NCBI GenBank assembly: GCA_045837725.1
Contig: JBEWZL010000301.1
Location: forward strand, 62,001-92,593
Length of the DNA: 30,593 nt
DNA from: Vermamoeba vermiformis
Taxonomy: Eukaryota
Direction: 5' to 3'
Positions 8,526 to 29,000 of the stretch are shown piece after piece. The position numbers and the translations under genes are program-made. Every line of letters begins with the position of its first letter. Within the stretch, counting starts at the first letter, position 1. The notes beneath the pieces were generated by a model. That model did not search any database. It was not told the origin of the DNA and was given only the letters and a program-made list of their open reading frames with translations.

Positions 8526-8985
8526 AGGTGACGGATATCCGTGTGCTTCTTACGGCAGCAGTAAACTTACTGATAAATTTTGGCCTGCTGCTTTTAACGG
8601 CTTTGACAGCTAGCTGACAAGGGTAAAAAGATTTGACACGAATAAATACTTCAGAGCAAACAATAAAACACCAATTAATTAATTTGAATGCGACCGATAG
8701 AACGGAGGCGTTAGGTAGAAGTTGTTGGATCCGCCAAAAGTTCGCTGGAGACTCTGTTGGTAAATGATCCTGCGTAAATAATGTTAATTACAATGTAATT
8801 ATTAAAATTAACAGCTATTTAATTCGTACCTCGACAGGGCGTAGAATTTTTTCATCAGAAAGGTGAGCAGTCAGTATTATTGAAGCAGATAATGAAAAAA
8901 GTAACGTCCGTATTATTCCTGATTTTTTCATATTTTTTGGGTGCCTTCAGATTGATTTCTAATTATTTTTCAGTTTTGAACGAAG

Positions 8986-11253
8986 ATGTCGACAACAGAA
9001 CGCCACTCCTGCGTTCGCATTCGCACAAACCTGACCGGTGGCCTTAACATCGCAGAGCTAAAGCGAGTAACAGACGTCAGACCATGGGATTCTATGCGCT
9101 CTGTGGTGCTCCGTTATTGTCTTGCTGAAACTATTACCGATCCAAACCTTTACGCTATTCTAATTGGTCGAAACAATAGCGTGAATTTATATACCGTCGA
9201 GTATTATGGATTGTATAATGGTTTAGTGTTCATTTGCTTTCCTCGTTCCGGGCGCGAGATCGGTTATGGAAAAATGGAAGAAGCACCGATTGACGTAAAT
9301 AGTTCTAATTATTCTTTTAATTACTTAATTAATTCATATTATTTAATTATAGGAAAATCACAAAGCCAGCAGTAAAAGTCTTTTTGATCCAAATCCGTTT
9401 CAGTTCGAAAATCTCCCTTCAGATATTCAACAAGATTGCCTAAAATATCTAGAGCTCCATAGTATAGTCCGATTAACAGAAGTACGTCATATTCGATTAA
9501 ATACAAATGCTTAATGCGACTTCTTGCAGGTCTCAAAAAAAATGAAGAAGATCGCGTCGCTATCCAAGTTCTGGGAGAATATTTCATTCTATAACAATAA
9601 TAGTATAGACCCACAGAAGATATTAAATATTTCAACAGCGTATTACGCTCCCTCAATCAAAAAATTGGATCTGGCCTTCACGAAGATCACCTCGGAAACG
9701 CTCGCTGAGATTACATCGAAGTGTGTTAATCTAAAAGAGCTTATATTGGATGGATGTATCGATTTGAAAGGAGGCTTAAGCCAGCAGGTAAGAATAGCAG
9801 CACACAACGATCCGCTACGAAGGATTTTTTATTAAAATTCGCCAAATTTCTTTAAATATTATATAATATTAAAGTATTTGATTTATTACTGAAAATCAAT
9901 TTTAGTGCTCACAACTTGAGGTTCTGTCACTGAACGGCATTTCTGGATTTGCTCAAAAGTTAGAAACAGTTTTCCAACCAAAAAACACGACGCTAAAAGT
10001 GCTCGGCTTGGCGCACACGTATCAAGTTCTAACGGCGCAGTTATTCTCGAATTGCATTGGTTTAGAACAAATCGATATGAATTACAATCGCGGGGCTGTC
10101 ACTAATGAAACAATTGAAGCTTGCTCTCGATTGCCTAATTTGGAAGTGCTCAAGGTACGTACAATCCGAAATTTTATCAAATTTATTCTTTTGAATTATA
10201 TTTACAAAACGCAGAAAAAGCGATGCGGATCTCTATCTACGATAGTAAATAATCTTTTTTGTAATAGATTAATTGGTGCCCTAATGGAGTTGATGAAAAT
10301 GTTTTAGCGCCGTTAAGTACGATTAGATCTATAGGCATTACTAAATTTGGAAATGCTAATTAAAGTTTAGCACGGTTAACCACGTTAACAGCTTTGGAAT
10401 TTGCTGAAGGTCGAACTACGGCGGAAATACTCAAGGCCCTTTGTGAGCGGAATAACTTCAAAAGACTTCACCTGCAAGAAGTTTTTAGCTCGTACTCGTC
10501 CGCGGACATTTTCAACAATTCTCCGCAGCTCGAGAGTTTCTACGGCGTAATTCATCGCGGCGATTACAAATTACCGAAGACTTTGAAGGTAAGTCCACAA
10601 TCACAAAAAAATAACGAATTTCTTTTGACACGTGTCAAAGGCTGAACTTAATCAATATGAAAAAAATGACATATTTAGTGTCTTTCCCTATCGATTTTGA
10701 CATCGGTTTTGCTGTCATAAATTAGTACAGCCCAGGTCTCGTACGTCGACATTTTGACACTTTACGATAATTTATACGATCGTATTCGAACTTTATTTTT
10801 TAACGTTAACGTGTGTTAGTTTGACACGTGTCACAGCTTACAATTTAAATTGAGTGCTAACGAACTGTCTTGCGGTAGGCTCTGATGGCACCTGTCATGT
10901 GGCCAGAACTCTTGCAAAGATTAGCTGACGAGTGCCCGCTACTTGAAGCATTAGTTTTAAGTGACATGTCTGAAACTAAGCTCGAAAATACTTTGATTGC
11001 ATTATTACAAGCGGAAAAACTTCGGAATATTAAGTTCTTGGATATTTGTGGCGTCGCTGGCACTCAAATCGTCACTGAAGTAGCATTTCATTGCCCAAAT
11101 TTGGAATATTTGCTCTTGCATGAAAAACTCGAGGTTACTTTGGCCCAGTTGCAACTCGTACAAGAAAAATGCAAAAATCTCCGTGAAGTCCAAGTTAGAT
11201 GGCGTGATGAATTCACCGTACTCAGTAACAAATTTCAAGGATACAAATACTAA
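8986..11253 (+). CDS. Leucine-rich repeat protein (cysteine-containing, FBXL/RNI-like repeats) with a possible N-terminal ubiquitin-like domain, multi-exon
   Basis: Repeats such as SIKKLDLAFTKITSETLAEITSKCVNLKELILDGC, CIGLEQIDMNYN, LPNLEVLKL, CPLLEALVLSD and CPNLEYLLL across GT-AG exons. The N-terminal ~85 aa end in NLYTVEYYGLYNGLVFICFPR, resembling the ubiquitin strand TLSDYNIQKESTLHLVLR (weak). The 3' end is uncertain and may splice into 11277. Confidence 0.8.
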
Positions 11254-11276: not shown

Positions 11277-11828
11277 TGCAAATTAAACTTAACTTTCAAA
11301 AAAGCAACCGAGCGGATCTGCTGTCGCTACACAAAAATAAAGGATCGCCGCAAACAGTTGCGACTGAGCCATGTTGTGAAGCTGATCTATGATCAGATCA
11401 CCATTTGGGATTTGAACAAGGATCAAACAGACTATGTTATTTGCCCTGGTCACATCACACGCAACAAGGTTGATGCCTCCCATCTTTGTCATAATCCACA
11501 ATGCTTCAACCCAGTTCACATCTGCTTTGAACTGACAATGATCAACCTTTCTCGCAATACCTGCTTCACAAGCAAGAGATGTAGCGGTCATAAGGGTGCC
11601 CCTAAATGCATCATTCGTAAGAGCAATGAAACTGTGAAGGAGATGAAGAGCGACGATGAAATTTCTGATTTTGAAGATGAAATTTCATCAAAGCAAGTTA
11701 AACAACGAACCAGAATTGGACGCAATGCAATTAAAATCATTCGTAAGTATCAATTCAATGTTGCAAAAGAGAGTGAATCGAATGCAAAGTCTTTGAAGGC
11801 CAAGAGAAGACAACTCCAACGCAAATAA
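11277..11828 (+). CDS. His-Cys box / His-Me finger endonuclease-like segment (zinc-binding loop of homing endonucleases); no own ATG, so a terminal exon or a 5'-truncated fragment
   Basis: DASHLCHNPQCFNPVHICFELTMINLSRNTC...C..H...PKC matches the SHLCHNxxCxNPxH...E...N..R..C signature of I-PpoI-type nucleases. The frame is open from 11277, right after TAG 11274-11276, with no ATG before the motif; acidic then basic tail. Confidence 0.75.
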   Translation, partial: CKLNLTFKKATERICCRYTKIKDRRKQLRLSHVVKLIYDQITIWDLNKDQTDYVICPGHITRNKVDASHLCHNPQCFNPVHICFELTMINLSRNTCFTSKRCSGHKGAPKCIIRKSNETVKEMKSDDEISDFEDEISSKQVKQRTRIGRNAIKIIRKYQFNVAKESESNAKSLKAKRRQLQRK

Positions 11829-12053: not shown

Positions 12054-13894
12054 TTAAGCTTTTTTACTAGCGTAGACTTGAAATAGCAGGCGAAGAAGAA
12101 TTGCAGCGCATAATTTGGCTGCAAAAGAAAACGATACAACTCTGCACATTTGCAAGGAAAATAATTCCCGGAAAGTTATTCCGAATATTCGCGCTGTTAG
12201 TATTAAGTACACTGTAGCACCAAAGAGGTACTTAAGATTGTGCCCCAATAATATGATGCTCTTATTAGCAGACCATACTATAGTATCTGATATCATCGTA
12301 TTTGGTAGCACTATTAGCGATGAATATATTGCTAATAGCACGCAGAAGCTCGTAAGAATTTTTCGCACCGGATCCACTTTTTGTTGCTTCAAGTAGCCCG
12401 ATCCAACTTCAGCATAAGCATAAAATACTGCGGTCCATAAGAAATTTCCTATTGTTTCGTATATTGGTACGTAGAAAGTGCTGTTGTTGTTAACGTACTG
12501 GCTGGATCCAACGGTGAACGTGAACCAAATTGCTGCCGCTAATTCATACAGAAAGATCGATCGGTGGTCCTTATTAGATGAAAGTGCAAATACGACTAGT
12601 ATCACTATAATTGTTGAATAGAAGGTCCACGAAGGTAACAGCGGAGTTATGAACGAGCAGATCCACGGCCAGATCAGCAAAGATATAACCGGTACAAGTA
12701 TATCCGCTGAATTTGCAAATAACCCCACTAAATATATATCATTAGTATTAACAATATAAAGACAAAACAGTCGCTTACGTGTCCAAATTAGCGGATCTTC
12801 AATGTGGTACTCGATCAGGCGCAATCGATAGACCGGATCTCGTAACGTTAAAGCTACAGGCACCGCCGTTAAAAATTCTCCGAGATTGAAAGTCAATTTC
12901 ACCGGGCTGTCTGAGAGACGAGGCAGCGGTACTGTGATTGGTCGTCGAATGAGGTACTGTTCGTAGTCTGTGTCGTAGAGCGTAATGCAGTTTCGATATT
13001 TGTTGTCATAAGTATTATTCGTAGTAATGCCTTCAACTTGCACTACAAAACTAAAAAATACGTCGTTATGTAAGAATTATTTTTTTCTATTAATTAACAA
13101 ATGATAAAAAATACGTACTCGCTAAAATTGTCCGTTGTAGCAGCTGAAGATTTTCTAAGATTTCGTAGGATATTTGTGTCTTTTAATTCCACGAAATATT
13201 TCCCGCGCTTTTCTGCCGCGCAAACGTTTCTATTTAATTCTTTTGTAACCAAAATTGGCTCCTGTCAATCAATACGTAATTAGGTCTTAGTCTATTATAA
13301 TAGTCAATCTTATTATATTACTTCTTTTTCTACCCATTTTTGCTGCGCTGCATCGTAGTAGAAATTATTACTGGAGGCAAAATCACTGTCACAGTTACAA
13401 GCTTCAAGCAACGATTTTAATAAGTCTCTAGCAATATGATCATTAATATATTAGTATTATATATATATGATTATAGTGTACCTTCCCTCTTTGGCACGGC
13501 GCAGCACAAAGTAGTCCAAGTCGCGATCCGAAATTAAAGATCGCCAGTACTTGCTAACTTCTCGGCTCCGAATAGCATTGGATATATCGGATTTTATTAT
13601 CTTTAGTAAAATCTCCTATTGTTGAAAAGAAAATTAATGCTGATGTCAGCACGTCGGATTTGTTTTTTAACTTATTTAATTTCAAATTTCTTATGTGCGA
13701 TTGTAACATAATATAATTATCGGATTTTTTCGTATATTTACCTGCGGTAGCACTGTATCAATAAGAGCTTCACTTGGGGCGATAACCTTAGTTAGATCTA
13801 ATTTTTTCGTCGTGCTTCGACGTTTGTTGCGTCTATCGAGAGCAAATTTTGCTATTAATGCTAAGGTTACTATATAAGCCAGCAATATTAACAT
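12054..13894 (-). CDS. F-box protein with N-terminal signal anchor and C-terminal multi-pass membrane region, multi-exon
   Basis: ATG 13894 MLILLAYIVTLALIAKFAL (hydrophobic); across the first intron LPQ|EILLKIIKSDISNAIRSREVSKYWRSLI fits the F-box consensus; the last exon (ORF 12054-13043) has several hydrophobic helices. Confidence 0.7.
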
Positions 13895-14368
13895 GTTTAG
13901 GTACTGTGGTGATGCAAACAAAGCAGGTGTCAAAATAACGGGATATGAAAGGTGAATACACCAAAAATCGTTATGACGACGTTAGCATAAAAACAGTACC
14001 TAGCAGACTGCCGTTGTCTTATGGATGATGTCGGGACAGTTACTCGGATGCTCTCTATCCGAAACCAAAACTGATCGACTGGACCTGATTAATTTAAATA
14101 ATTTAAAATAATTCAGAAAAATCTTGAATGGGCGGATTTGAATTACAGTCTAATTATCGTAGCTATTCATAATTTTCCTTTTGAAAATAAAATTTGCCAA
14201 GCGGATTTAAACCTCACTTACCTCAACCGGTTTATGGTTATCTTTCTTTAGTAGACTATACAAAATTGAATTATACAACAACGGTGCTGCATTTCACGAT
14301 ATTATTGCATCAAATACACGTATTTGTGTTAGTTAAAATTGCGTACAAAAAAAAACTTGATCTGAATG

Positions 14369-14399
14369 AACGATAACTATTGTAAAATCAAATAAATGC
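14369..14399 (+). repeat. Candidate left terminal inverted repeat, preceded by AATG
   Basis: 26/31 match to the reverse complement of 21091-21121. Confidence 0.55.
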
Positions 14400-14671
14400 G
14401 TTATAGATTATTTATAAATAATTAACTATTTAATCTATCGTAATATTGTGTTAAAATGATAGTCACTCATGGATCTGACCGCCGAATCTAGGCAACGGCA
14501 GATCGTGAAAAAATTTATTCACTAAAAAGGGACCTGTTTTAAAGACTTACATCCTAAGCTTAGACTTAGCAGTTTCCAAAATATGACGCTTATTTGAGGT
14601 GTTTGTGCGGAGAATCGGCCCTGAACTTTTTGATTTTGGATCAAAGACCGACGTAGTCAACCACAAGAAAA

Positions 14672-15879
14672 ATGACTGACCGCATTGTTTATGATTATGT
14701 TAATGTTCCTTATGGGAAACCTATGGAAGAGACGATTGATTTACCTGCCCTGACGGAAGAGGAATTAAAAGAGTATCGGACCGTAACGACAAGGTAATAA
14801 ATAATTTTAAATAATTTAATATTGGTAAAATATCAATCTTCCGTTGACCCAATGAAATATTATGATTTGCCAATTATTATTTTAATTCTTTAATTTTTTT
14901 TAGCGCCGTTTTCAAGGACGATTATGGCAGTACTGCCATAGCTTTTTTCCAAGGGGTGCTCGAGAAAAAGACTGTCGATGACGCCAAAAAAGCTGCCCAG
15001 TCGTTGTTAAAAAATTTAAAGATATCTCAACCTGGGACTAGCGCGCATACAGGCGAATGGCGAAAGAGCAGCGATTGGATATTCAAAACCAAAGACACAG
15101 TCAACGGTGAAGAGTACTACAAACGAGTTAACCGAAAGCCCTTTTGGCAGAATGCTGCCACAAAAAAGATCGTCAAAAAAGTTGATAACTACTTTTCAAG
15201 AACAGCGAGCGATTTATGCGAGGCATATAAAAGAATCAACGCAGAACGCATTTACGGAGGCTCGTACCTCATGTGCGTTATCAACACTGGGGTAGTTGGG
15301 CCTCATTACGACGAGAAAGACGAAATTGAAGGACTTTGCTGTGTCGTTCCAATGGGCGTATTTGATGGTGGCGACCTGGTGTTCCGACAACAGAAGCTTC
15401 GTTTTCAAGTACGAACAGGAGACATCATCTTCTTCCGCTCTCGCGAGTTGATGCACGAGAACTTACCTTGCACCGGAGAGCGATATTCGTTAGTCTTCAC
15501 TACTGACCACGACTCGTTTACGGAATTTGGTCAACCTGCTCGTCAGTACATGCATTGGAAGCAACCAAAGTTAAACAGTCACACCACTATTGAAGCACAA
15601 GGATTCAAACCCGAAGACGTACCCGAGTTACGCAAAACAAAGGTTGTTGTTATCGACAAGGTGTACACAAAACTAACGCGTGCAAATACACCACGAACAA
15701 AATTTGGTACGTTAAAGCTACCCTCACAAGATGGAAACCCAAGGGCACCAATTTCTCTTCGAAAAAATGCCAAGAAAAAAAAGAAGGCAACGAAGAGAAA
15801 GAGAAAAGAGATCGACGATGACGAGAGCCATTCTGAAGAAATATTGCTCGAAACAAAAAGACGGCGTATACAAAAATAA
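14672..15879 (+). CDS. TET/JBP-like 2-oxoglutarate/Fe(II) dioxygenase (Naegleria Tet1-like), 2 exons, 365 aa
   Basis: Exon 1 14672-14793, GT-AG intron 14794-14903, exon 2 14904-15879, in frame. HxD at PHYDEKD (His 15304, Asp 15310), strands GLCCVVPMGVFDGGDLVF and GDIIFFRS, distal His (15454), then Arg (15481) in HENLPCTGERYSLVF. C-terminal basic clusters KKKKKATKRKRK and KRRRIQK. Confidence 0.8.
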
Positions 15880-15880
15880 T

Positions 15881-17221
15881 TTATTTGTTACGATAAAAGA
15901 AGAACGATAATAAATTGTTAATTTCCATTTGGTATTGATTACGAGTGTAGAGCTCTTTCATATAATAAAATAAATCCAAATTATTCGGCAAAGTTGACAA
16001 ATTAGCTGATGCTAGTGGAAGCGAGGGCAGCAATTGGGGAGGTAATGAAGGTTGAGGCATGCTGAGCGACTGGGCATTATTTTGACTTTGCAAGTCGGGG
16101 GTCTTAAGCGGTGGCAACAGGGCTGGCTCATTGTCTACTGACCTCGGCAGAGGTAACAATGACTCCTCGTGACCCTCCTCTTGCTTTGTCTCAGGAGGAG
16201 TTTGAACCAACTTCTTTTTTTGCTTGTACCGCCTCTTGGTGAGCTTATATTCACCTGATGCATCATCGCTTATAGAACGATCAACAACAACACGTGTCTT
16301 CTTTCTTCGGGTCATAGATTTTGACTTCGCAGCTGCCGTTGGACTTGCCGTCTTTTGATTTTTTCTTGCTCCTTGCGATCTTGTCACCCGTCGTTCAGGG
16401 CCAGGAGTGCTTTTTTGCTCTACTTTCTTTGTTACTCGGGCCTTTTCTTGTTTTGAGGGTGGTACTACTTCCTCTTTAGAATGTGTTCGTTCTGGTGAAG
16501 ACTACTAGGATTAAAAATTTGTTAATTAATTTGAGCTTACTTTATGTGTGACTTCTCCAGACAGAAATTGTTGCCAAATTGTCGTCAATTGTTCGTTTTG
16601 CTCGGATGGGATTTGTGCCGGGTCTGAAAATTTTCTGAACTGCTTAACGTCAAGCAAACACACCTCGTCAAACTTTTCTGTTGTTGCAACTATCCTTGGA
16701 CTTAAACCCTTTCAAACCATAGTTACAAATTATAAAAATAATTAAAATAATTGTTAAGTAATCGTTCTTACCCTTTCAATTGCTAAAATTATATATGTAG
16801 TGCTTCCTTCATTCAGTAGAATGCGATTGCCAGAACCAAGAGCAATTTTAGAGTTGGGAAGTAAAACAGAACCGTAGTAACGACCATTGATTGCACTTCC
16901 ATTGTAGCGTGCAGTACTATGAAGTTCGTCTATCAAAGTTTAGCATGTGGCAACCCTATTATTTGCTTGTACCGCTATCTTCATCCTTTTTCACGTTGGA
17001 TTTCTCTTCATCTAGTTTTTTTATTGATAAATTTGGCTTGGTTTCCTCTTTCAAAGTAGTTAAATCTGCTTCTTATATAATATATTAATTCGTCTAGTAG
17101 GTAAAAACATGTAGCTTTTTTTTACAAGCCAGATCTTACCGAGAGCAACCTGAGTACTTGTTGGTAAATCATCATTCTTAGTAGTTTCTTCATTACTTAT
17201 TGAGGACTCATCAGCACTCAT
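15881..17221 (-). CDS. Hypothetical protein, about 5 exons: acidic N-terminus, small globular middle region, basic and Pro-rich C-terminus
   Basis: Phase-compatible GT-AG splicing gives MSADESSISNEETT...DELHSTARYNGSAINGRYYGSVLLPNSKIALGSGNRILLNEGSTTYIILAIER|GLSPRIVATTEKFDEVCLLDV...IWQQFLSGEVTHK|SSPERT...TRRKKTR...LLSFFFYRNK*. The start could lie further upstream. Confidence 0.65.
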
Positions 17222-17433
17222 TGTTATGGTTGTGTGTATCCCAATCAAAACGTTACTATCATAAGTAGTTTTACTTTGCCGACATGCATTTTCGAAGCTT
17301 CCTTTCCTTTTTTGGAAATTCAACGAGCAATTTTTTCCCTGCTTTACCAAGCCTTCGTTAGCATTAAAATCAGGTAGAACCACCACAACATACTTTGGAA
17401 AGTGATATACTTGCAATATAATATCAAAATAAT

Positions 17434-20400
17434 ATGGCAGATAATATACTAGGTAAGATCTTAAGAGTTGCTGTTCGGATCTTGATTTCTAAATATTTTT
17501 TTACTTCGGCACATAACTTATCTTTTTTAACAAGATTAATTAAGTCTATATCTTACCTCTGTTGTGTAATTGGCTAGGCAATTATGCAATGTCGGATTAA
17601 ATCTGAGCATTTTTACATTAGGTATCGAAATCGAAGGAGCGACAGTAAGTTTTAAGCATTACGCACATGATTTTTAATTTATTTAGCCCATTCCAAGTGA
17701 TTTACAAGGGTTTGTATGGGGATCCGGAGGTTGAACTATTTTGTTACAAGCATAATTCTAACCGGTGTACAGGAATTATCAACTTGTGTACCATGGAAAC
17801 ATTGTGCTTTATATTTAAACAAGCCCTAGTGGTATACAACATGGTAGTTGATTGTGAATTTTTTCGACTATTGCGCAACACTCTGGATGCCGTTACATTT
17901 GATCAACTACACACCAGTAAATTACCAATAATTCAGTTTTTCCAAAAGCTGTGTCCTACTTGGGTGCCAGGAAGATACGTTGGCGTAAATGAATTACTAA
18001 ATCCTTTAATCAAATCGGAGCTTGTTTTCAAGACCAAATTTGAGCTTTGCTTCACCAAGTCAGTCAACTGTGATTGTGGCCAAGAAGTTCAAACTCTCTT
18101 TAGCAACTCTCTGGTGGTATCTGAAGATTACTTGAAACAAACAAATTCAGTTACTGCATCAATAAGAAGATCAATGTTTCGAGAGCAAGACTTAGCAGGT
18201 GTCTGTTGCTTTTGTCACTCACCAAGGCACTTGAAAGGTAGATAAACTGTTTCAAAACTAACTTTAACCAACCTTCTTTAGAATCAATAACAAAGCTTCC
18301 AGACTTGTTGGTTGTGGAGTTTGACACTGGACATCAAAACTATCTGTCTTCTACATTTGATATTGAACAAATTGTTCGCTTAGAAGATGGAGATTTTTCA
18401 TTATTGGGGGCATTGAGAATTGATGGGAATCATACTACTGGATTCTTTCATAAAAATGGTCGAGTGCATGTTTATGATGGCTTAAAAAATGAGGGTAAAG
18501 CAATGGAGCTGCAGTACTCTAAAATGCACTATCTACCCTTGGAAGATTTTAAATATATAACACACTTGATTTACATTCGTACTGCCAATTTTGCCAAAGG
18601 TAATAACATTAAATTCAAGCTTACTACTCTGTTGACATGCTAATGTACTTCTTAGACTTGGTTCTTTCAGATAGCAGTCAATTACTATTCTCACAAATCA
18701 ATGCAGCAAAAAAACTCACTCCTCTTGGAGATAGTGGCTCAACCTCCAATGAATTGGCAACTGTCGAAGCTACCTCATTATTTAGTAGAATGAATCAAAC
18801 AGTCAATAACACAAAGAGTAGCTCTTTGGCTAAACAATCCATGTTGAAAAAGAAGTTAACCCAAGAACATGCCTCAAAAAGTATGTGCATCTACCGTTAA
18901 CTATAGAGCATAATGCTAAATACTGCTTTAGGTTTACGTTTTAAGTGCTGCACAAATGAGTGCTGTTCTAAATTTGATCTATTCCAAGTCGTACATTATC
19001 GAAACCAATTACTACAAGACAACCATTTCAATTCGAACTTTATTAAATCCTACATTCGACAACATGCCAACAACGAAACTATTTCTTGGCAATTTGGAGG
19101 GTTAGAAGTTTGCCAAGCAGCATGGTACACACTATATGGATTTTCGTCAGTTAAATTTTTTAAAGCAAAAAAAGAAGAATTACAAGGTAAACTCTGCATT
19201 ACTTGAATTGTCATTAATATTGTTTAGGGTCTTATCAAGTGCTTCACGGGAACTATTTTCGAGAATATCCAAAGCCAAAGAGTATTAGTGTAAGCGCATG
19301 GCTTACAAACTACTGTGAAAAGTATGGAGATTATGTTCCTACAATCAATGAAATACATTTAAGTGGCAATTTAAGGTAAGTAACGTTACAATTTGCTGTA
19401 AGCCTTTAATTGTATGTGCAAGTTTACAAGAGTGGTATGAAGAGTATCATGCTGAAGCATCAGTCACTTTGGGTGACGTAGCAAGTTTTAAAACCTTTTG
19501 CTATGTTCGTAATTCCCAATTTTCGCATGTGAAGTTTCCAAAAGTTACTAGACTGGGCAAGTGCTCCATTTGTGTTTCAAATAGAAAATCAAGATTACTT
19601 TGTAGTAACCTTGAAGACATCATATCATTGAAATCTGAGTTAAAGGCACACTTTAGCGTTACTGCCGGAGAAAAACAACAGTACCATGGCAGAAAGATAA
19701 AAGCCAGGCAATATCCAACTGCAATTTTGTCATTTATTAGTGATAAAACAAAAGATGTAGAAATTCCAACTACCAACCCTCTACCAAAATCATGGACAAG
19801 AGTAAAAAGACATCCAGTTGGAATTATGGGCATTTTAAATCATTCGTTAGGAACCAAAGAATTTGTTTTGTTTTCCCCAGAACAGTGGACCTTGGACTCA
19901 AACTTTTTTCTAACAATTTTACATAACTCGATTATGAACTCTCTAAAAGCTTACAAGGCAGAAAGGCCCAGAGTTTTATATATACAAACAGATAACTGCA
20001 GTGCAGAGTCAAAAAACCAGTATTTATTAGCATATTTGGCTCTACTAGTCGAGTACAAAATTTTCGATGAGATTTACTTCCACACTCTAATTCCTGGTCA
20101 TACTCATGAAGATATAGACCAACTATTCAGCGTTCTGCACCAAAAATTAGAAACTGCTACTATTGAAACAATATCACGACTAATCAACTTCATGGAAACA
20201 AAAGTTTTCTCAAGTCGTCCAATTGTAACATGGATTCGAGCTGTGTATGATTGGAAACAATGGATGTCTGGTTTTTGTAACAAAATATCTGGTCACAAAT
20301 CACCACATGCTTTCTTAATTAAGAATGGTTCTGACTCTAAGGTGCACCTATATTATAAAAAGTACTCTCAAGATATGGAATGGTTGGGAGACCATAATCA

Positions 20401-21086
20401 AAATGTCATTTTCAATTCAAAACCTGCAGCATGGCCAAATATCCTTCATCAAAACCAGTTTGATCATGAAGCAATTAAAAAGATGGTAGATCAATGCAGG
20501 TCACACATCTCCGAAACGGTAAGTTTAAAACTTTGAAAAGCAATTAACAACCTTTAGAGTGTTCAATGGTGGCAACATATTGATAAATCAGTTAAAGTCC
20601 TACCTTGTTTGTCAATTACACCCAATCCATTTGCTGATTTTCAAATATCTTCTGTTGTTCAACATGAATTCAAAGTTGTTTCAACACAAACACCAGTTAT
20701 AAAAGTAACAAAACCAAGGCAAAAAAGAAAGCCAGAAGGTTTGTACTGTTTATTATATAGAACGGTTCTAATCATTTCTAGATTGGCCTACAGGAGCTGT
20801 GAAAAAGCTTCGTTCTGCAAAAGTAAAGGATGATTTGTTGGATTTATTGGCAAGCCTTAGTAAATCCTTTGAAGCTAGTCTGCATTATCCTATTCCAACT
20901 CTACAACAATCTCTTCGCAACTTACTAGGGTTTGGATCTCCCTTTATAACCAACATTTCAATGAACAAAGAGTTTGAAGAAGAAATTGGATCACTAAGGT
21001 CAAGAATTGAAGCACTACAGTATTTACATACACTGTTAGAAGATTATGACAGCATTGTAAAAGATTTGAAGCTCAAAAAAAAGTAA
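17434..21086 (+). CDS. USP-like cysteine peptidase fused to a Sola-type DDD transposase, 11 exons, ~1025 aa, apparently intact
   Basis: Exons 17434-17452, 17622-17644, 17687-17729, 17773-18237, 18282-18599, 18656-18880, 18932-19186, 19228-19375, 19423-20518, 20558-20738, 20782-21086 (3078 nt, all GT-AG, no internal stop). Peptidase motifs: INLCTMET, CDCG...CCFC, LPDLLVVEF, LLGALRIDGNHTTG...VYDGL, LIYIR. Transposase motifs: CC..C, VCQAAWYTLYGFS, HGN, WL...GDYVP...IHL, KCSIC...H, ISDKT, YIQTDNCSAESKNQY, PGHTHEDIDQLFS. Confidence 0.85.
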
Positions 21087-21090
21087 ATTT

Positions 21091-21121
21091 GCCTTTATTT
21101 GGTTTTACATTAGTTGCCGTT
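21091..21121 (-). repeat. Candidate right terminal inverted repeat, followed by AATG
   Basis: Starts 5 bp after the transposase stop codon; 26/31 inverted match to 14369-14399. Confidence 0.55.
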
Positions 21122-21154
21122 AATGTTCAACGACTTTCGGTTCAAAGAGTAAAT

Positions 21155-22610
21155 TTACAACTTCGAAGCAGTACTAGGTGGGTCTAATTTAAATACACGA
21201 CAGGCGGTCTTCCACAAGAACTTGTCTTTGGCATCCGACGAGAGGCCTAAAGTATCGACATTTTTCAACGTCTTCTCAAGATTCAATTGCGGAAAATTCG
21301 TGCCAAACATCACTAATATAACCTTATTAGCACTTGTATAATATTGTTTATATTAAAAGTCGTACCTTTGTCAGATCCATAAGTCTTCATATAATGAACT
21401 AATGCTGGCGGGAAGTATTTAGGATCATAAGCAGATGTATCTATAATATTATAAAGAGGCATTAATAAAATATTGTAATTTCCAAATAAGGATAAAATAC
21501 GTACCAATATAAACGTTTTGATGCTTCCAACAAACTGCAATCATTTCTTCGGTCCAAGGATAACTAATCAACAATAATAAGACCCCTTTTCATATCTATA
21601 TCATATATATATAATATTTTAATAGCTTACCCAAGATGACCGCCTACAATTTTCAACTGAGGAAAAGTTAGTGCAACTTCGTCAATGTACGGGATCGGAC
21701 GACCAGTCTCAGAAGGCATAAGAGGCCCTGTGTGCCCAACTTGACAACAAAATGGTATGTCTAATTCAATGCATTTGACATATAACGGATAATACAACTT
21801 GTCATTGGGAGGAAGTTTCCACATCCTGATCGCACGAGAGAAAAGTCATTAATAAAAACGAAATCATTCATTAGGATATAATTATTAGAATTCAATGCAT
21901 ATTTACCATGGAACTACTCGAAGAGCTTTAAAACCGTATTCTTTGACGCATTTTTCGAGTTCTTTGACTGCGGCGACTGGATCCGCCAAATTGACCGCCG
22001 CAACACCTTAAAACCAACAGAAATCAATAATGTATTTGAAATATCGTATAAATATGCATAGAAATTGTTAATAGGATACGTACCAATAAATCTTTGAGGG
22101 TTGTACTTGACGAACTCGTAGATTTCTTCGTTTGTAAGTGGATAGCATCCAGGACGCGACCTAAAATATGAATTATTATTCGATTTTAATCATTATAATA
22201 ATATTTACCACGCGGAAAGCATCATTCTGTCAATGTTCGCTTGATCCATCAATTTCAACAAAGCTTTTGGAGTCCATTTGACGCTGCCTATAAAGAATCG
22301 CTTAGTCAATAATAATTATAGTATTCATGGGTAATATTAGGTATATACACCATTTAAATCGGACCGATTTTGTGAAAGAAAAAATCTTTCCGTCGAAAAT
22401 ACTGGTGGGATCTGATATTATACCTGTTTTAATGGCCGTAAAAAGTTGTTCGTTGCCCTTTCCCGATATTTCTAGCAACCTCAGCGTCTCAGGCGCCAGG
22501 TTAAAGAAGTTCGAACCTACATCCAAATTTAATTCGGTATACTTTATTTGAAAGACACAATTATTACCTGCAGGCTGTGCCCAAACATCAATAGCTACTC
22601 TTTGTGCCAT
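21155..22610 (-). CDS. Amidohydrolase_2 family metal-dependent hydrolase/decarboxylase with C-terminal PTS1 (-SKL), multi-exon
   Basis: IDVWAQP; CQVGHTGPLMPSETGRPIPYIDEVALTFPQLKIVGGHLG|YPWTEEMIAVCWKHQNVYI|DTSAY; MFGTNFPQL; ends ...FKLDPPSTASKL* (stop 21155-21157). Confidence 0.9.
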
Positions 22611-22931
22611 AATGATTCGTGGACGTCTTTGTTGTTGATCAAAACTTAAAGAGAATAAAATTGCGCCTTTTCATTTTATTTCAATCTAACCTGCCATCAA
22701 CATATAATCACCTTCAAACGATCATATAAAATAGAAAAAGATTTACCCAGAGCTAGGATCCGCTGAATTGACGAGAAATGCAGATTATCAAAAGGTAATC
22801 CAGCTGCCAATTAATTTTTTAATTGCCAAATAATCGAAAATAATTATTGTTGTCCGGATTCAAATCCCGCCAAAAATAATTTATAAATAGTTCCCACCCC
22901 GTAAATAATATGAATTTTATAAATTATTTTA

Positions 22932-24963
22932 GAGTGAGTCTCCGATTTTGTCCCAAACCCCCAATTTTGTCCCAAACGATTTTGGACTAAAATTTAACAA
23001 TAATTTATTTTAATACTTATTTAATGGAGTGATTTCAATACAAATAGATAAATAATAAGTGAATACTTGAATTACAGTTGATTTAATCGTGCAATTCGCC
23101 TTCATCACTGGCCAGATCGGATCTTTCTTCGCTTCGATCAGATCCGCATTCAGCAGCATGCTCATCATGAATATCGCGTTTTTGACACTTCTTGCATACT
23201 TGATAGCTATTACATGAGGTGCAGACCCAAAATTTGTGCTTCTTGGTATATATACGACGGCAAGGTGAGCACGTCCTACTAATCACATCACTCTGTTTGT
23301 CAAGTTTGCGTCGCTTGACGAGCTCTTGTCGCTCTTCTTTCTCCTCTTCTCTCTTTCTCTTCTTGTCCTCTCTTTCTTTCTTCGCAAGTTCTTTAGCCTC
23401 CTTCTCTTTCAGTGCTTTTTCCTCCTTCTCACGGGCATAGATCACCAACTGCTGGCCAGTCACCAATTTATTCCGCTCATTGGCACGTACTCGCTTGATA
23501 GGAGTCTTGGTTTGATTAGGTATCAAGGCCTCCTTAAGTATCAGTGCCATAGCTTTAACTTCTTCATCTTCACTGGTGTGCAGTTGAGGTTTTGTGTCGA
23601 ACATGTACATGTTCTGAAATTTCTTGCTGATAAGTGCACTATCGAATGGCCAAATGCCTGTATGTCGAAATCCTGCCTTAATGACCTCTTTATCAAATAT
23701 ATTGGACTTCTCCTCCGTGATAATGTCTTCAATAACAGAGTGCAGGGTCTCTCCAGTGAGGAGCCGTCGCATTCTTTCAAGGTCTCTCTTGACACGCATC
23801 TTGCGTTTGAACGAGCCAAAAATCACGTCGTCAAGAGGTTGAAGCAAATGAGTTGTATGTGCTGGTAGGTACAGGGGCTGTATATCAGAATCTAATAGCA
23901 AGTTGATGCTGGTCAACTCCAGGTGGGTGGAGTGGCGGTCAAGAAGTAAAAGAGCTGGTTGTCCTTGCTTGAACGCTGAAAGTCGCTCCACGAGTCGCGC
24001 TATTATTTGCTTCCACAACTCATTTGTAATAAAGCCATTAGCTGTTGTGGCATAATAAGTTGGTATAGTGCTGCGAGTATATCTCAGCTCTGTAGTGACG
24101 GGAATCGAATTCTTCTTTTCGTTGCCATTTTGTGACATGTCCTTGTAGATGAGCACTATCATCCAAACACGACCAGATGCTGCAACGAATGGAAGTATAG
24201 TGCGTAGATGACTCTTGGGAGTACTCAATCTACCCTGCTTTTTCGAATTTGCACTCGTTAGAATCTTCGAACTTTCTCCGTCAGTAAATTTACAGGGAGA
24301 TTCGTCAGTGTTGATGATGAAGTCATCCGTGTAACTTTTCTCTTCTAGTAGCCTCTTGTATTCTTTCACAAATGACTCAATAATATCAATAGTGACAGAA
24401 TTGACACGTCCCATGTCGAGGTCTTTACCAAACGCGTGAGAGATGTGATCTGAATTGCGGATCAGAAAATTGCTAAACCAGTGATTGCCTCGCCAGTCTT
24501 CAGGGAGCTCAAATATCTTACGTACAAAACTAATGAATACACTTCTCGACAGAGCTATTCTGCTTGCTGAAAAAGCTAAAATGATGCTGCATAGTCTTTT
24601 TTCTTGCTGATCGGTGAGCATCTGATTTCCATGTTTCTTCTCTTTATTCTTTTGAGCCCGCTGGTAGGCTTTGCGAAGTGTTTCGAATTTATTGGGACTA
24701 TTCCGCGTCAAATCGCGAATAATTTCGCTAATTGTCTCGCCGTTTTCTGAAATCCGTTGATTGATCTCATGAATTTCGTTTTCATACTTCGCCATTACTG
24801 GTCAGAAAAATTATAAATAAAATCAATACTATTGAACAACAAGCTGTCGTGTTCGTGTGCGAAGCAACTTATTGAATGCCGTTGGTAAAATAATTTGCGA
24901 AATTACGCAAAAAAATCGGTTGGGACAAAATCAGGGGTTTGGGACAAAATCGGCGACTCACTC
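22932..24963 (-). mobile_element. pogo/Fot1-like (Tc1/mariner superfamily) DNA transposon, 2032 bp, 53-bp TIRs, 3-bp TTA duplication
   Basis: TIRs 22932-22984 and 24911-24963 (GAGTGAGTCkCCGATTTTGTCCCAAACCCC..ATTTTGTCCCAAmCGATTTTT, 49/53 identical). TTA at 22929-22931 and at 24964-24966. Single transposase ORF inside. Confidence 0.92.
23083..24795 (-). CDS. DDE_1 family (pogo-type, DD35D) transposase with CENP-B-like HTH region, Lys/Glu coiled coil and C-terminal Cys-rich zinc finger; 570 aa, intronless
   Basis: LTDQQEKRL...GNHWFSNFLIRN (HTH); IINTDESP; LLLLDRHSTH followed 35 residues later by LPAHTTHLLQPLD; CSPC...WVCTSCNSYQVCKKC...H...C. Confidence 0.93.
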   Translation of the reverse strand: MAKYENEIHEINQRISENGETISEIIRDLTRNSPNKFETLRKAYQRAQKNKEKKHGNQMLTDQQEKRLCSIILAFSASRIALSRSVFISFVRKIFELPEDWRGNHWFSNFLIRNSDHISHAFGKDLDMGRVNSVTIDIIESFVKEYKRLLEEKSYTDDFIINTDESPCKFTDGESSKILTSANSKKQGRLSTPKSHLRTILPFVAASGRVWMIVLIYKDMSQNGNEKKNSIPVTTELRYTRSTIPTYYATTANGFITNELWKQIIARLVERLSAFKQGQPALLLLDRHSTHLELTSINLLLDSDIQPLYLPAHTTHLLQPLDDVIFGSFKRKMRVKRDLERMRRLLTGETLHSVIEDIITEEKSNIFDKEVIKAGFRHTGIWPFDSALISKKFQNMYMFDTKPQLHTSEDEEVKAMALILKEALIPNQTKTPIKRVRANERNKLVTGQQLVIYAREKEEKALKEKEAKELAKKEREDKKRKREEEKEERQELVKRRKLDKQSDVISRTCSPCRRIYTKKHKFWVCTSCNSYQVCKKCQKRDIHDEHAAECGSDRSEERSDLASDEGELHD

Positions 24964-26038
24964 TTAATTAAAATTCAAAATTTGAATTATTGTTCACGGG
25001 ACGTTCGTTACCCGGGTGGGTCGAGCGTGGCCTGCGTGCGAAAACAGCAATATACAATAATATATGTTTCAGAGACTTATTTTATTACTTAATTACGGTT
25101 ACACTATTCAAACACACAGAACTCGTTTGGCTTGACTACTCTTAGCAGCATGGAGCAAGGCAGTGACGGAAGTGTTTGGGCTTACCTTCGCAGTGTAGGC
25201 GGCTTCCGTGGCACTCAGGACTTTGACAACTCGAAAAAAACAAAAAAAGATTCGTGACACATCTTAGCTCACCTTCCAAATGCGGTCAAAATGACAAAAT
25301 ATCTCGGAAATTCTTGTCGGAAAACTGGAATGACCAATCATTTGGAAGGATTGAGCTTTGTTTACGTCACGCAATTTTTTCATTTGTCAAAGTCCAAGTG
25401 CCACGAAACCACGAACGCACGCTGTCGGAGGTAAGTTTAAAACTTGTTGCTGCATTGCTGCCTTGGTAAAGCGCTAAGAGTGTTCAAGCCATTTGTCGGA
25501 TCCGTTTGTATGTGTTTGTACATGTAACCCGTAATAAACTACTGTGGCTTATCAAATATTGTGTAATTTATCTATTCGCTTGCACGTACGCTCGGTGCCG
25601 GCCGCAACGCACGTTATTATTATTGAAATTATGAATTTTTAAAATAATTAAAATTCTAAACAAAATTTAAACTATTTACGGGGTTCGAACTTAATATAAA
25701 TTATTTTTGGCGGGATTTGAATCCGGACAACAATAATTACATTGATAATAACATTCCATTTTTAAAAATAATTAAAATATTTATTTACGCAAATATTAGG
25801 CAGGAGCGAGCCATTTTATTGTACCTGCGCGCTACTTACATAATAAATGGTAGGTAGCTATAATATGGTGGTGTAAACGAGTATGACGCGCTGAGTCCGC
25901 ATTCCAGTGTTGCCTAACTGATCCTTAGAAACTCTGTCCTCTTCGGTACGTCTTGCGTCAATTGCTTCCATTAATGCAATAAGTTAATCAAATATTGCAA
26001 CATTTTTTATACGACGGTCCATGTTGCGTTTTTGTTGA

Positions 26039-29000
26039 TAGTCGTTTGACTTCTGGGTAAGGTAAATTTTACCTCCTTTTTTATTTACCTACCTGAAAAG
26101 TCGGTAGGTAACCAAAACCGGGTTATATTTACCAAGGTAAATTGGTAAATTACCAGCGAGGGTCCGGCCTTCCTCTTCGCCCAGACTTAGTCAATGAACT
26201 CGATCCACCATAACAAATGCAGTAGGGCTCAAATCAACACACAGCATTTAAATATTCAATATTGTATATCAATTACAGGCAGGTATAGCCTTGGCGAAGG
26301 TACGTTTCTTCCGAGATTCGCATCCAATTCGCTGAGACTAAATTTTCTGCACGCTAGGTACTTGCAAAAAATTAGAAAAAATAGAGCCACGTGCGTTATT
26401 ACACACCACGTGATGCCCAGCTTTTCTGCGAAGATTAATGGCTGTTCAATTTCACGGTAGCGTCTCGATCAGCAATGGCAGAGAAAGGAGTATGGCAATA
26501 TCGGATAATATGATATTAATTAATTACTAACTTAATCTGCAGACTTCAACAAACAAGCGCAAGCTAAACGAACAAGATCAGATGGTAGATTTGTTCCTGG
26601 CAGTCGCCGAAAAGACGGCATATTCTGCAGACGAGATTGAAAAAACGAGAGTCGCGTTGTTTGAAACACTGAAACTGGGTTCTCGAGAATCAATACTAGT
26701 TCTAGAACAAAGCCCACTGTTAGGTCAGATGCGAGGCGAGCTTGTAATAGGCTTAGTTTTTGCATTCCTAAGTGCACTGGTAATGATAATATTATTTTGT
26801 ATTCTCTCTTCTAATTTGATGACTTTTTAGAAGAAATTTGAGCCGGATGGCACGGATGTTGAGCCGCCAACGAAGCGAGCCAAACTAGGGCAGCGCAAAG
26901 ACAATGCCAAAACACCAGAAGCACTCGCTGACAAAATAATAGACAAGTTCCCGTTTCCAAACATGCTTGACGAAACACTGCCCAACAGAAAAGACGATTT
27001 TACAGTAATAACTCTCGAATCGGTGCACTGCAACATCTGCAACAAAACGCTGAAGCTGAACTTTGTTGGTAAGCTAAAATTTCGTCATTGCCGCGTCTCC
27101 TAACCTGTACCAGCTTGTCCGGCGAAGTTTTATCGACACTTGTGCGGTGATAAGCCAGGTACTATAACAAGTCATATTCGAGCCTTGCAAGACCAAAAGT
27201 ATGTTAATTTTAACGCACAGAAACAAAACTAATTTGGGTTAGGCAAGATGTAAAGCGTCGCCAAAGTTTTGGTCACCAGGCTGAGATCCTTCGTTCAAAA
27301 CTCAGCCAGACGGAAGGAAAGGTTATGTGCTTCTGTGGTGAATCTGCCATCGAAATGAATGTCGCTGGCAAGGTTTACTATGTTTGTGCTAGAACACAGG
27401 TGACAGGTGCACGCGACTATTGCACCCTGAAAAAAGTCAAGAAATTAGCCGAGCTTGCAGTAGATGAAGGGTTAGTCAACAATGAAAATATTGTAGTTAG
27501 TTAATAGTTAATAAATAATATAGGCGTAAGCTGCGTATGGTTAATTTGCGCAAAAAAAGTCTATCTTGCCAGATCAGTGCACGACCCCAGGGGCTTTCGA
27601 CCAAGGGCTTGCCTTGGCGACCTTCTTTGCGAATCAGGTTACTACAAAATTATGTAAAAGCTCTGGCAAAACACTACACTGCAGCTCCCAGTATTTGCAA
27701 AGATCGTGCACCAATTGGTTCGTAACCAAACGGCCTTTGTATCGTGCTCCTCTTACTGATTGTTCTCAATTACTAGTGTCAATTGAGGCACATGTACTTC
27801 ATATGGTCAAGCTACTAATTAAGACAAGAGAAATGGACAATAAGACGTGGCACTTTATCGACACAGTTCTGAATCATTTTCGTGGCCAACATGGGAAGAG
27901 GTAACAATATTTTCTCAATATTTTATTTAAAATAATCAATTGTATTAGATATCATCATTCATCTTTGGCACTGGGAAAAAAAATCAAAATGCAGGGCGGA
28001 TCGAGATCCCTGAAACTTCTTCCTTTGCCAAGCAAAACCACAATAAGTCAGTCAAAGCATGTATATTTAAGAGAGTATGGGATTTCTTCGTCATTGATTG
28101 ACCTGGTATGCCCTTGAAATGATTTTTGGTGACCCGTTAACTTACAATTGCCAATCCTAGGCCAAGCGCTACTTTGACATGCACAACATATCCTCGTCAA
28201 GCTTTTTAATATGCTTAGACGGCATTTATGTGCCAGAAGATGACAATATATGCTTCTCATCAAGAACACGTCATGGTTTTGTTGTACCGGTAAGGTTTGT
28301 ACTCGTAACAGCTCGTAACTGATAGTCATTCATGAAGGATTACACAACAGTTCTTAAAATCCGGTCATATACAGAGGTTGAAAAGCCCTTTGTACAAGAT
28401 TGGAAATATGCACGTCAAGTTGTTGTCGTTCTGCTCTGCCCGCTCATTCCTGGCTATCATGCCTTTCCCATTGGCCTTGTACCAACAGAGGTTACCTACG
28501 ATACAAAGTTAACAAAGAACTTATTTGAACAAGCAGTGTCTGAAGTACAGAAACGCTCTTTCGAAGTTTTCGCAATTTCGGCTGACAACGCTCCTGGACA
28601 TGCTGCCTACTTTGGTGATCAAGTCAGTTCACAACCATTTATTATTGCTGATTGGCCTTATGGTGCTCCTGCTACTCATCCTATCCCCCTTGTTGATTAT
28701 CTCCACGTTGGAAGGAAAATTTGCAACCAAGTTATCAACCCAAAACGAATAATCATGATCGGTGAAGTTCCAGTCATCATTCAGCCCCTACTAGACTTGC
28801 AACGAGTAATAGAAGGCTTTAATGTTCGAATTATGAAGCACCAAGATGCTCAGTATCATCAAAGGGTTGATTTCTTATTGGGCAATTCGGACGTGTGTAA
28901 CTACTCTCACTTTTGGATCTCACTAACATATTATTTACAGTTACACTCCAAGCTAGGTGATATCCAATTAGCGGAAGGCCTTTCTGTATACTTGCGAATG

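What the first reader, a model, noticed from the sequence alone, without database searches (positions are those of the whole stretch)
14369..21121. Three-gene Sola-type transposon carrying a TET/JBP-like DNA dioxygenase: candidate anti-silencing system
Seen: an intact TET/JBP-like gene, an unknown basic ORF and a peptidase-transposase gene are packed tightly between two same-strand host genes. They are bracketed by 31-bp imperfect inverted repeats (26/31) with an AATG direct repeat immediately outside each. Removing the interval leaves ~0.5 kb between the amidohydrolase stop and the F-box start, a normal spacing here. Known: Sola elements make 4-bp TSDs; TET/JBP enzymes oxidise 5mC or T in DNA; TET/JBP genes travel with fungal Kyakuja/Dileera/Zisupton and Plavaka transposons. 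I do not recall a TET/JBP cargo described for a Sola-type transposase with DNCxxExKN and GHTHxxxD motifs. Inference: a mobile element that rewrites DNA methylation on itself or at its insertion sites, analogous to the VANC anti-silencing proteins of plant VANDAL elements.
Basis: partly seen in the sequence, partly recalled or inferred. Interest (0 to 1): 0.93.

Follow-up and report, generated by a model that had tools for sequence, protein, structure and literature searches.

The report
Transposon carrying a TET DNA oxidase
A 6.75-kb cut-and-paste transposon in an unidentified microbial eukaryote carries an intact TET-type DNA-base oxidase, adding a new transposase lineage to the fungal transposons already thought to use such enzymes against methylation silencing.

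Summary
The observation largely holds. 14369-21121 is bounded by 31-bp inverted repeats (26/31) with AATG directly outside each end. None of 10 shuffled windows gave such a pair.

It holds three intron-bearing genes:
- A 365-aa TET/JBP dioxygenase with an intact HxD...H...R site. Its model's best PDB matches are NgTet1, CcTet and CMD1.
- A 375-aa basic protein of no known family on the opposite strand. Three of its introns are seen spliced in RNA-like contigs of a related organism.
- A predicted 1032-aa transposase with a DUF7869 (PF25273) DDE core.

- "Sola-type" fits the 4-bp duplication, but no Sola reference was available to test it.
- The "peptidase" part has no sequence support.
- Contig depth indicates a single copy, and no empty site was seen.

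A divergent metagenome contig (L001) also has TET followed by a DUF7869 transposase. In both elements the TET part has normal CpG content (o/e 1.34 and 1.07). The rest is CpG-depleted (0.56 and 0.54).

TET-bearing transposons and the anti-silencing idea are already in print (Kojima 2025, 11 lineages in Dikarya). This is therefore a new variant of a known kind.

The parts
14365..14368 (.). left target-site duplication AATG
14369..14399 (+). left terminal inverted repeat (31 bp, 26/31 with the right arm)
14672..14793 (+). TET/JBP gene exon 1 (ATG 14672). The 110-nt GT..AG intron 14794-14903 is predicted and not seen in RNA.
14904..15879 (+). TET/JBP gene exon 2 with stop. The protein is 365 aa, with H175-x-D177, H225, R234 and a basic C-terminal tail from residue 331.
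15881..16501 (-). gene 2, last exon (basic, low-complexity; includes the stop)
16541..16707 (-). gene 2 exon 4. The flanking introns 16502-16540 and 16708-16770 are seen spliced in X3 contigs.
16771..16929 (-). gene 2 exon 3. The 43-nt intron 16930-16972 is predicted and is retained in the X3 contig.
16973..17071 (-). gene 2 exon 2. Intron 17072-17139 is seen spliced in an X3 contig.
17140..17221 (-). gene 2 exon 1 (ATG at 17221). The whole product is 375 aa, pI 9.1.
17667..18237 (+). transposase exon 1 (start codon uncertain). N-terminal region of unknown family.
18282..18599 (+). transposase exon 2.
18656..18880 (+). transposase exon 3
18932..19186 (+). transposase exon 4 (CCxxxCC motif shared with relatives)
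19228..19375 (+). transposase exon 5
19423..20518 (+). transposase exon 6. DUF7869 DDE core with D613 (19742-19744), D696 (19991-19993) and E735 (20108-20110).
20558..20738 (+). transposase exon 7
20782..21086 (+). transposase exon 8 with stop, ending 4 nt before the right repeat
21091..21121 (-). right terminal inverted repeat
21122..21125 (.). right target-site duplication AATG

Best explanation
The interval is one autonomous cut-and-paste DNA transposon of 6,753 bp. It has 31-bp imperfect terminal inverted repeats and a 4-bp target-site duplication, and it sits about 30 bp downstream of an amidohydrolase gene.

Its DDE transposase belongs to the uncharacterised eukaryotic family DUF7869 and presumably cuts at the repeats and reinserts the element. 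This is inferred.

The element also carries a catalytically intact TET/JBP dioxygenase with a nuclear-type basic tail, and a basic 375-aa protein of unknown family.

The most likely role of the dioxygenase is to oxidise 5-methylcytosine on the element's own DNA. That would keep at least part of it transcribable despite host CpG methylation. The same role has been proposed for fungal TET-bearing transposons. It is inferred here, not shown.
For: Ends:
- 26/31 inverted repeat plus AATG on both sides.
- 0 of 10 shuffles gave such a pair. The next-best match to the right arm is 19/31.
- In the source DNA run a contig ends at 21122, and two other contigs match up to 21121 or 21122 and then run into unrelated sequence.

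TET:
- 505 relatives at E<=1e-3.
- 19 of 20 aligned relatives hit Pfam Tet_JBP at E<=0.01.
- H, D, H and R are invariant or nearly so.
- The profile's best PDB matches are NgTet1 (E 3.9e-5) and CcTet.
- The model has pLDDT 83.7. Every chain listed at Foldseek ranks 1-16 is NgTet1, CcTet or CMD1, the best at E 6e-12.

Transposase:
- DUF7869 at E 4e-52.
- Removing seven GT..AG introns of 39-56 nt gives one 1032-aa frame.
- D613, D696 and E735 sit on strand 1, after strand 4 and at the start of a helix of an RNase-H-like model. The model matches IstA, TnsB, integrases and Mos1.

Linkage elsewhere:
- Metagenome contig L001 has a TET gene (41% identical) followed on the same strand by a DUF7869 gene (E 3.4e-8; tblastn E 5e-10).
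- Relatives of the TET protein occur on up to 7 contigs each.

Expression:
- RNA-like contigs of a related organism cover TET and the spliced gene 2.

Methylation signature:
- CpG o/e is 0.56 in 15881-21121, against 1.34 in the TET part and 1.21 outside the element. TG+CA is in excess. L001 shows the same pattern.
Against: - Depth of the source contigs is flat: 427-445 inside the element against 387-527 in the flanks. The full element is therefore single-copy, and no second full copy or empty site was seen.
- The two arms differ at 5 of 31 positions.
- The window's own TET scores below Pfam's cut-off (13.8 against 34.9 bits).
- Only 1 of the 40 related loci fetched shows the TET-transposase pair. 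Most of the 40 are short contigs or viral contigs.
- The transposase introns and the TET intron are predicted, not seen in RNA. No transposase RNA was seen.
- Whether the host methylates DNA at all is unknown, because no genome was held.
- The CpG contrast could instead reflect different origins of the two halves.
Confidence: 0.6

Rival explanations
1. The dioxygenase is real cargo but does something other than demethylation-type anti-silencing. It might hydroxylate thymine as JBP does, act on N6-methyladenine as CcTet can, or make a persistent oxidised mark that regulates transposition or host genes.
For: - The protein is only 12-18% identical to the solved TETs it resembles in fold.
- Kojima's discussion notes that transposon TETs may not be limited to canonical TET chemistry, and that CcTET also acts on 6mA (PMC12730594, section 4.2).
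- Host regions of the window have CpG o/e of 1.2-1.5, so there is no sign of genome-wide CpG methylation.
Against: - CpG loss with TG+CA gain in the transposase half of two elements points to cytosine methylation at CpG on these elements.
- No glycosyltransferase or other modification gene lies in the element.
Confidence: 0.2
2. The element is an immobile, single-copy relic. It inserted once, and its genes are now kept, or merely not yet decayed, without further transposition. TET and gene 2 may serve the host.
For: - Single-copy depth, and the same left junction region is covered in a water metagenome.
- The arms differ at 5 of 31 positions.
- RNA-like contigs show TET and gene 2 but no transposase.
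Against: - All three genes are open. The transposase frame survives over 3.1 kb of coding sequence and seven introns.
- The catalytic residues are intact.
- Other contigs of the source run share the right end and diverge exactly at 21121 or 21122.
- The TET and gene 2 pieces differ at 7 of 1632 bases between the two organisms, whereas the neighbouring amidohydrolase exons differ at 18 of 429. This suggests a recent arrival rather than an old relic.
Confidence: 0.15
3. The TET gene is a host gene that merely lies beside a smaller transposon made of gene 2 and the transposase. The left repeat at 14369 would then be a chance match.
For: The TET part has host-like CpG content (o/e 1.34) and higher G+C, while the rest is CpG-poor. 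The change falls near 16000, not at the left repeat.
Against: - No alternative left end exists. The best other match to the right arm is 19/31, and 0 of 10 shuffles reach 26/31.
- AATG flanks both ends.
- The TET stop (15877-15879) and the gene 2 stop (15881-15883) are one base apart, which leaves no room for an end between them.
- L001 repeats both the TET-transposase order and the CpG contrast.
Confidence: 0.05

Closest known systems
TET-bearing (TET+) DNA transposons of Dikarya fungi (Kojima 2025, PMC12730594; Iyer et al. 2014, cited there, not held)
   Same: A complete TIR- and TSD-bounded DNA transposon encodes an apparently active TET/JBP dioxygenase beside its DDE transposase. The same escape-from-methylation rationale is proposed for it.
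   Different: - The transposase family is DUF7869. [quoted passage not shown]
- The words Sola, Mucoromyc-, Glomeromyc-, Rhizophagus, chytrid and protease each occur 0 times in that paper.
- The host here is unidentified. Its DNA turns up in water and aquifer metagenomes, and the only named TET relative is from Rhizophagus irregularis.
- This element is single-copy and has an extra basic-protein gene.
- The paper's supplementary tables could not be seen.
Sola superfamily (Sola1/2/3; Bao et al. 2009, known here only through passages in PMC10741241 and PMC5751038)
   Same: 4-bp target-site duplication, TIRs within the stated 11-1124 bp, size within 2-9 kb, an acidic-triad transposase, and presence in early-diverging fungi (Rhizophagus).
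   Different: No sequence comparison with any Sola reference was possible. One Atlas cluster of DUF7869 proteins also carries DDE_Tnp_ISAZ013 in 11% of members. That family is tied in print to Zator (3-bp duplication), not to Sola (PMC10045372 passage).
NgTet1 (Naegleria Tet-like dioxygenase 1; PDB 4lt5, 5cg8, 5cg9)
   Same: It is the best sequence-profile match and the best fold match. It is also a small single-domain TET without the Cys-rich insert of animal TETs.
   Different: Only 18% identity. NgTet1 is not known to me as transposon cargo. This protein has an extra N-terminal exon and a long basic tail.
VANC anti-silencing proteins of plant VANDAL (MuDR) transposons
   Same: A transposon-encoded factor proposed to undo DNA-methylation silencing of its own family. 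Kojima's introduction cites this as a precedent.
   Different: VANC is not an enzyme of the TET family, and it acts sequence-specifically. Here an oxidase is carried and no targeting mechanism is known.

Membership tests
TET/JBP dioxygenases (Pfam PF12851) | 2OG/Fe(II) site: HxD...H triad plus the 2OG-binding Arg | tested here: met
   H175, D177, H225 and R234 are invariant or nearly invariant in alignments of 20 and 90 relatives.
TET/JBP dioxygenases (Pfam PF12851) | Scores above Pfam's curated cut-off | tested here: not met
   The window protein scores 13.8 bits (E 0.034) against a cut-off of 34.9. 19 of 20 aligned relatives hit the family at E<=0.01.
TET/JBP dioxygenases (Pfam PF12851) | Fold closest to solved TET/JBP enzymes rather than to other 2OG oxygenases | tested here: met
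   The model has pLDDT 83.7. Every chain listed at Foldseek ranks 1-16 is NgTet1, CcTet or CMD1 (E 6e-12 to 7e-8). AlkB-type and prolyl-hydroxylase chains follow from E 1e-6. The profile-to-PDB search agrees.
TET/JBP dioxygenases (Pfam PF12851) | Oxidises 5mC (or T) in DNA | not testable with these tools
   Needs an enzyme assay.
TET+ DNA transposon (sense of Kojima 2025) | TET gene and transposase gene lie inside one TIR- and TSD-bounded unit | tested here: met
TET+ DNA transposon (sense of Kojima 2025) | A repeated family with several copies sharing termini | tested here: inconclusive
   The interior is at single-copy depth. Two other contigs share only the right end. The whole genome was not available.
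Sola superfamily | 4-bp target-site duplication | tested here: met
   AATG on both sides. Duplications of 3 or 5 bp do not fit. The 4-bp rule comes from a passage in PMC10741241.
Sola superfamily | DDD/DDE transposase of RNase-H fold | tested here: met
   D613, D696 and E735 (D736 and D738 lie beside it) sit at the expected places of the model. The fold matches are DDE transposases and integrases, but with low TM scores of 0.2-0.3.
Sola superfamily | Sequence similarity to Sola1, Sola2 or Sola3 reference transposases | not testable with these tools
   No Repbase sequences or Majorek/Yuan-Wessler profiles were at hand. The founding papers are not held. No paper mentions DUF7869 or PF25273.
KDZ (Kyakuja/Dileera/Zisupton) and Plavaka transposases | Match to their transposase domains; 8-bp duplication for Zisupton | tested here: not met
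   Pfam-A gave only DUF7869 for the transposase exons at E<=0.1. That Pfam holds KDZ and Plavaka models is my recollection. The duplication is 4 bp, not 8 (the 8-bp figure is from PMC12730594).
USP/UCH (C19) peptidase domain in the transposase N-terminus | Detectable similarity to UCH families or solved USPs | tested here: not met
   - No Pfam hit even at E<=10.
- No relevant PDB sequence hit at E<=10.
- No homologue of 73-233 aa.
- Only Atlas leads: one cluster with 10% UCH at score 0.93 and one with 73% UCH at score 0.88.
- The fold could not be modelled because the domain spans two exons.

The most novel reading that the evidence does not exclude
The element is methylated by its host over only part of its length, and its own TET enzyme keeps the TET-bearing end free of 5mC. 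The result would be a transposon with a permanently open 'demethylase cassette' beside a normally silenced transposase.

The sharp CpG contrast would be the evolutionary footprint of this locally acting, self-encoded anti-silencing. The values are o/e 1.34 against 0.56 here, and 1.07 against 0.54 in a 41%-identical relative from another organism.

The near-identity of the TET and gene 2 pieces between two organisms (7 of 1632 bases differ) contrasts with the neighbouring host gene (18 of 429 differ). This would mean the family moves between species.
Probability: 0.2. Interest if true: 0.8.

Novelty: new variant of a known kind. Interest (0 to 1): 0.55.

Why it matters
Transposons that carry a DNA demethylation-type enzyme are a proposed counter-defence against epigenetic silencing, and this has never been tested. 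All described cases are in Dikarya fungi.

This case adds a transposase family (DUF7869) that has no literature at all, and it gives that family defined ends and a 4-bp duplication. It also shows the association outside the listed lineages.

It offers a simple, checkable prediction as well: methylation should cover the transposase half and spare the TET half. For an organism that already has DNA and RNA data sets, one methylome experiment could test the anti-silencing idea directly.

Tried and rejected
- Whole-genome copy search: no genome is held for this window.
- Earlier scan notes: nothing for this genome or these sequences.
- Peptidase: Pfam at E<=10, PDB sequence searches and a homologue search found nothing. 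The Atlas gave only weak UCH leads.
- Gene 2: no Pfam family and no match in any fetched locus.
- Transposase classification: the Sola and Yuan-Wessler papers are not held, nor is Iyer 2014. DUF7869 and PF25273 appear in no paper searched.
- Fold search of the transposase model (pLDDT 67): only generic RNase-H-like transposases and integrases at TM 0.2-0.3, so it gives no superfamily assignment.
- Viral contigs: 29 TET relatives, none with the transposase. The transposase alone found no viral relative.
- RNA: no RNA holder was listed for the stretch. The one RNA run of the same species label that was laid gave only 46 reads, all 90-95% alike and all on the amidohydrolase. It therefore comes from a divergent strain or a paralogue and says nothing about expression of the element.
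- Host identity: two cluster look-ups gave one named relative only, Rhizophagus irregularis at 26% identity. I did not try to identify the source sample.
- Loose-end letters of the right-end contigs: I did not search with them.


Full report
**1. The observation**

The left arm (14369-14399) and the reverse complement of the right arm (21091-21121) agree at 26 of 31 positions. AATG lies directly outside both, at 14365-14368 and 21122-25.

An exhaustive scan of the window for inverted 31-mers of at least 26/31, 2-15 kb apart, found three places only. The other two are the ends of transposons at 22.8-25.7 kb. None of 10 block-shuffled windows had any such pair. The next-best match to the right arm anywhere in the window is 19/31. 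The repeat finder did not list the pair among its 25 longest, because its seed is longer than the longest exact run.

The flanks are an Amidohydro_2 gene whose stop is at 21155 and an F-box-like ORF at 13457-13615. The F-box hit is below Pfam's cut-off. Both lie on the minus strand, opposite to TET and the transposase. Removing the interval leaves about 0.75 kb between them.

**2. The TET gene**

The gene has two exons, 14672-14793 and 14904-15879, and encodes 365 aa. The 110-nt intron is predicted.

On its own the protein misses Pfam's Tet_JBP cut-off, at 13.8 bits and E 0.034. Other evidence places it in the family:
- An exhaustive search found 505 relatives at E<=1e-3.
- 19 of 20 aligned relatives hit Tet_JBP at E<=0.01.
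- H175-x-D177, H225 and R234 are invariant or nearly so.
- A profile of the alignment finds NgTet1 (E 3.9e-5) and CcTet in the PDB.
- An AlphaFold model (pLDDT 83.7, above 90 over the catalytic domain) has NgTet1, CcTet and CMD1 as every chain listed at Foldseek ranks 1-16.

The C-terminus is a lysine- and arginine-rich tail. I conclude that this is an intact small TET/JBP enzyme.

**3. The transposase**

The 394-aa ORF at 19352-20536 matches Pfam DUF7869 at E 4e-52. Nine long relatives of 725-1017 aa all carry the same domain. Atlas clusters place the family mainly in arthropods and nematodes.

Seven GT..AG introns of 39-56 nt, each restoring the frame, join eight exons from 17667 to 21086 into one 1032-aa frame. 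The frame ends 4 nt before the right repeat. These introns are predictions. Their sizes match introns seen spliced in neighbouring genes.

D613, D696 and E735 align with the conserved acidic residues of the family. In a moderate model (pLDDT 67) they sit on strand 1, after strand 4 and at the start of a helix of an RNase-H-like core. The fold matches are IstA, TnsB, retroviral integrases and Mos1, at low TM scores.

There are only weak Atlas leads to UCH. I treat the peptidase as unproven.

**4. The third gene**

Contigs of a run from a related organism (X3) skip 16502-16540, 16708-16770 and 17072-17139 with minus-strand GT..AG ends. These contigs are therefore RNA-derived, and the "basic ORF" is the last exon of a minus-strand gene.

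With one further predicted 43-nt intron, which is retained in that contig, the gene encodes 375 aa with pI 9.1. It has no Pfam family and no counterpart in L001.

Its stop codon lies one base from the TET stop. Its start faces the transposase start across 445 bp.

**5. Mobility and copy number**

No genome was held, so I laid public runs on 13400-22400.

In the DNA run that may be the source, contig depth is 427-445 inside the element and 387-527 in the flanks. The full element is therefore single-copy. One contig ends at 21122. Two other contigs match up to 21121 or 21122 and then continue into unrelated sequence. This suggests other insertions that share the right end, but I could not follow them further. 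No empty site was seen.

A water metagenome holds pieces of all three genes and of the left flank region at 98-100% identity.

Between the window and organism B, the TET and gene 2 pieces differ at 7 of 1632 bases, whereas the amidohydrolase exons differ at 18 of 429. This is compatible with a recent arrival of the element, or with comparison to a paralogue. X3 has no coverage of the transposase.

**6. Linkage elsewhere**

A pattern scan of metagenome contigs gave 11 TET relatives. A scan of viral contigs gave 29. Of these 40 loci, one shows the pair. L001 is 3.7 kb and is cut at its end. It has a TET ORF (41% identical) followed on the same strand by a DUF7869 ORF (E 3.4e-8; tblastn to the whole transposase E 5e-10 over 320 aa).

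Most of the other loci are too short to tell, or they are viral. L012 is a polinton-like virus carrying a TET gene, a combination already in a preprint.

Relatives of the TET protein sit on up to 7 contigs each in unnamed assemblies. The only named relative is from Rhizophagus irregularis. According to a passage in PMC5751038, this is the fungus in which Sola1, Sola3 and Zator elements were found.

**7. An unplanned finding**

CpG observed/expected values:

| Region | CpG o/e | Detail |
|---|---|---|
| Window outside the element | 1.21 | |
| 14369-15880 (left end plus TET) | 1.34 | |
| 15881-21121 (gene 2 plus transposase) | 0.56 | 95 observed, 168.6 expected, Poisson P 5e-10; TG+CA excess 1.20 |
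| Transposase coding sequence alone | 0.40 | |
| L001, 1-1416 (TET part) | 1.07 | |
| L001, 1417-3685 (rest) | 0.54 | P 1e-7; TG+CA 1.45 |

The value returns to 1.0 or above at the right repeat.

The simplest reading is decay by 5mC deamination confined to the transposase half. That would imply the host methylates these elements, which gives the dioxygenase a substrate and a reason to be carried. Different origins of the two halves remain possible.

**8. Comparison with what is known**

Kojima 2025 (PMC12730594) describes complete TET-bearing transposons of 11 lineages in Pucciniomycetes, Agaricomycetes and Pezizomycetes, and proposes escape from methylation silencing. I read its abstract, introduction, section 2.1 and section 4.2, and ran a word search. 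Sola and early-diverging fungi are not mentioned. Its supplements were closed.

Sola is described as a DDD-transposase family with a 4-bp duplication, 2-9 kb long (passage in PMC10741241). Those features fit, but no sequence test was possible. One Atlas cluster hints at ISAzo13/Zator kinship instead.

The concept is therefore known. The transposase lineage, the extra gene and the CpG asymmetry are new.

**9. Verdict**

This is a real, intact, probably recently arrived DNA transposon with TET cargo. I rate it a new variant of a known kind, of moderate interest.

Noticed in passing
window 22834-25746: Nested transposons just beyond the amidohydrolase gene. An outer pair of about 45-nt perfect inverted repeats (from about 22841 and 25739) encloses an inner pogo-type element. 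The inner element has about 55-nt near-perfect repeats (about 22932 and 24963) and an open 572-aa DDE_1 ORF (23083-24801, minus strand).
   Followed up: partly
window 15881-21121 versus 14369-15880; L001 1417-3685 versus 1-1416: A sharp CpG depletion with TG+CA excess is confined to the gene 2 and transposase part of both TET-DUF7869 elements, while the TET part is spared.
   Followed up: partly
L012 (IMG/VR contig, 19 kb), TET ORF 8163-9041: A polinton-like virus contig (rve integrase, A32-type ATPase, double-jelly-roll capsid) carries a TET/JBP gene 33% identical to the window's. Tet genes in such viruses are already mentioned in a 2026 preprint.
   Followed up: partly
window 21886-22063: The source DNA run holds a second, lower-depth variant of the amidohydrolase exons (16 differences in 231 bases; depth 164 against 387). 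It shares its variant bases with the water metagenome. It may be a second haplotype, strain or paralogue.
   Followed up: no
window 11277-11828 (+) and 26500-30400 (+): An ORF with a His-Me endonuclease zinc loop (zf-His_Me_endon, E 5e-9), and a run of long plus-strand ORFs without Pfam hits. These may be further mobile elements, so the region is transposon-rich.
   Followed up: no
window 1453-3561 (+): A hybrid histidine kinase (HisKA, HATPase_c, receiver domain). It is the clearest host gene in the window.
   Followed up: no
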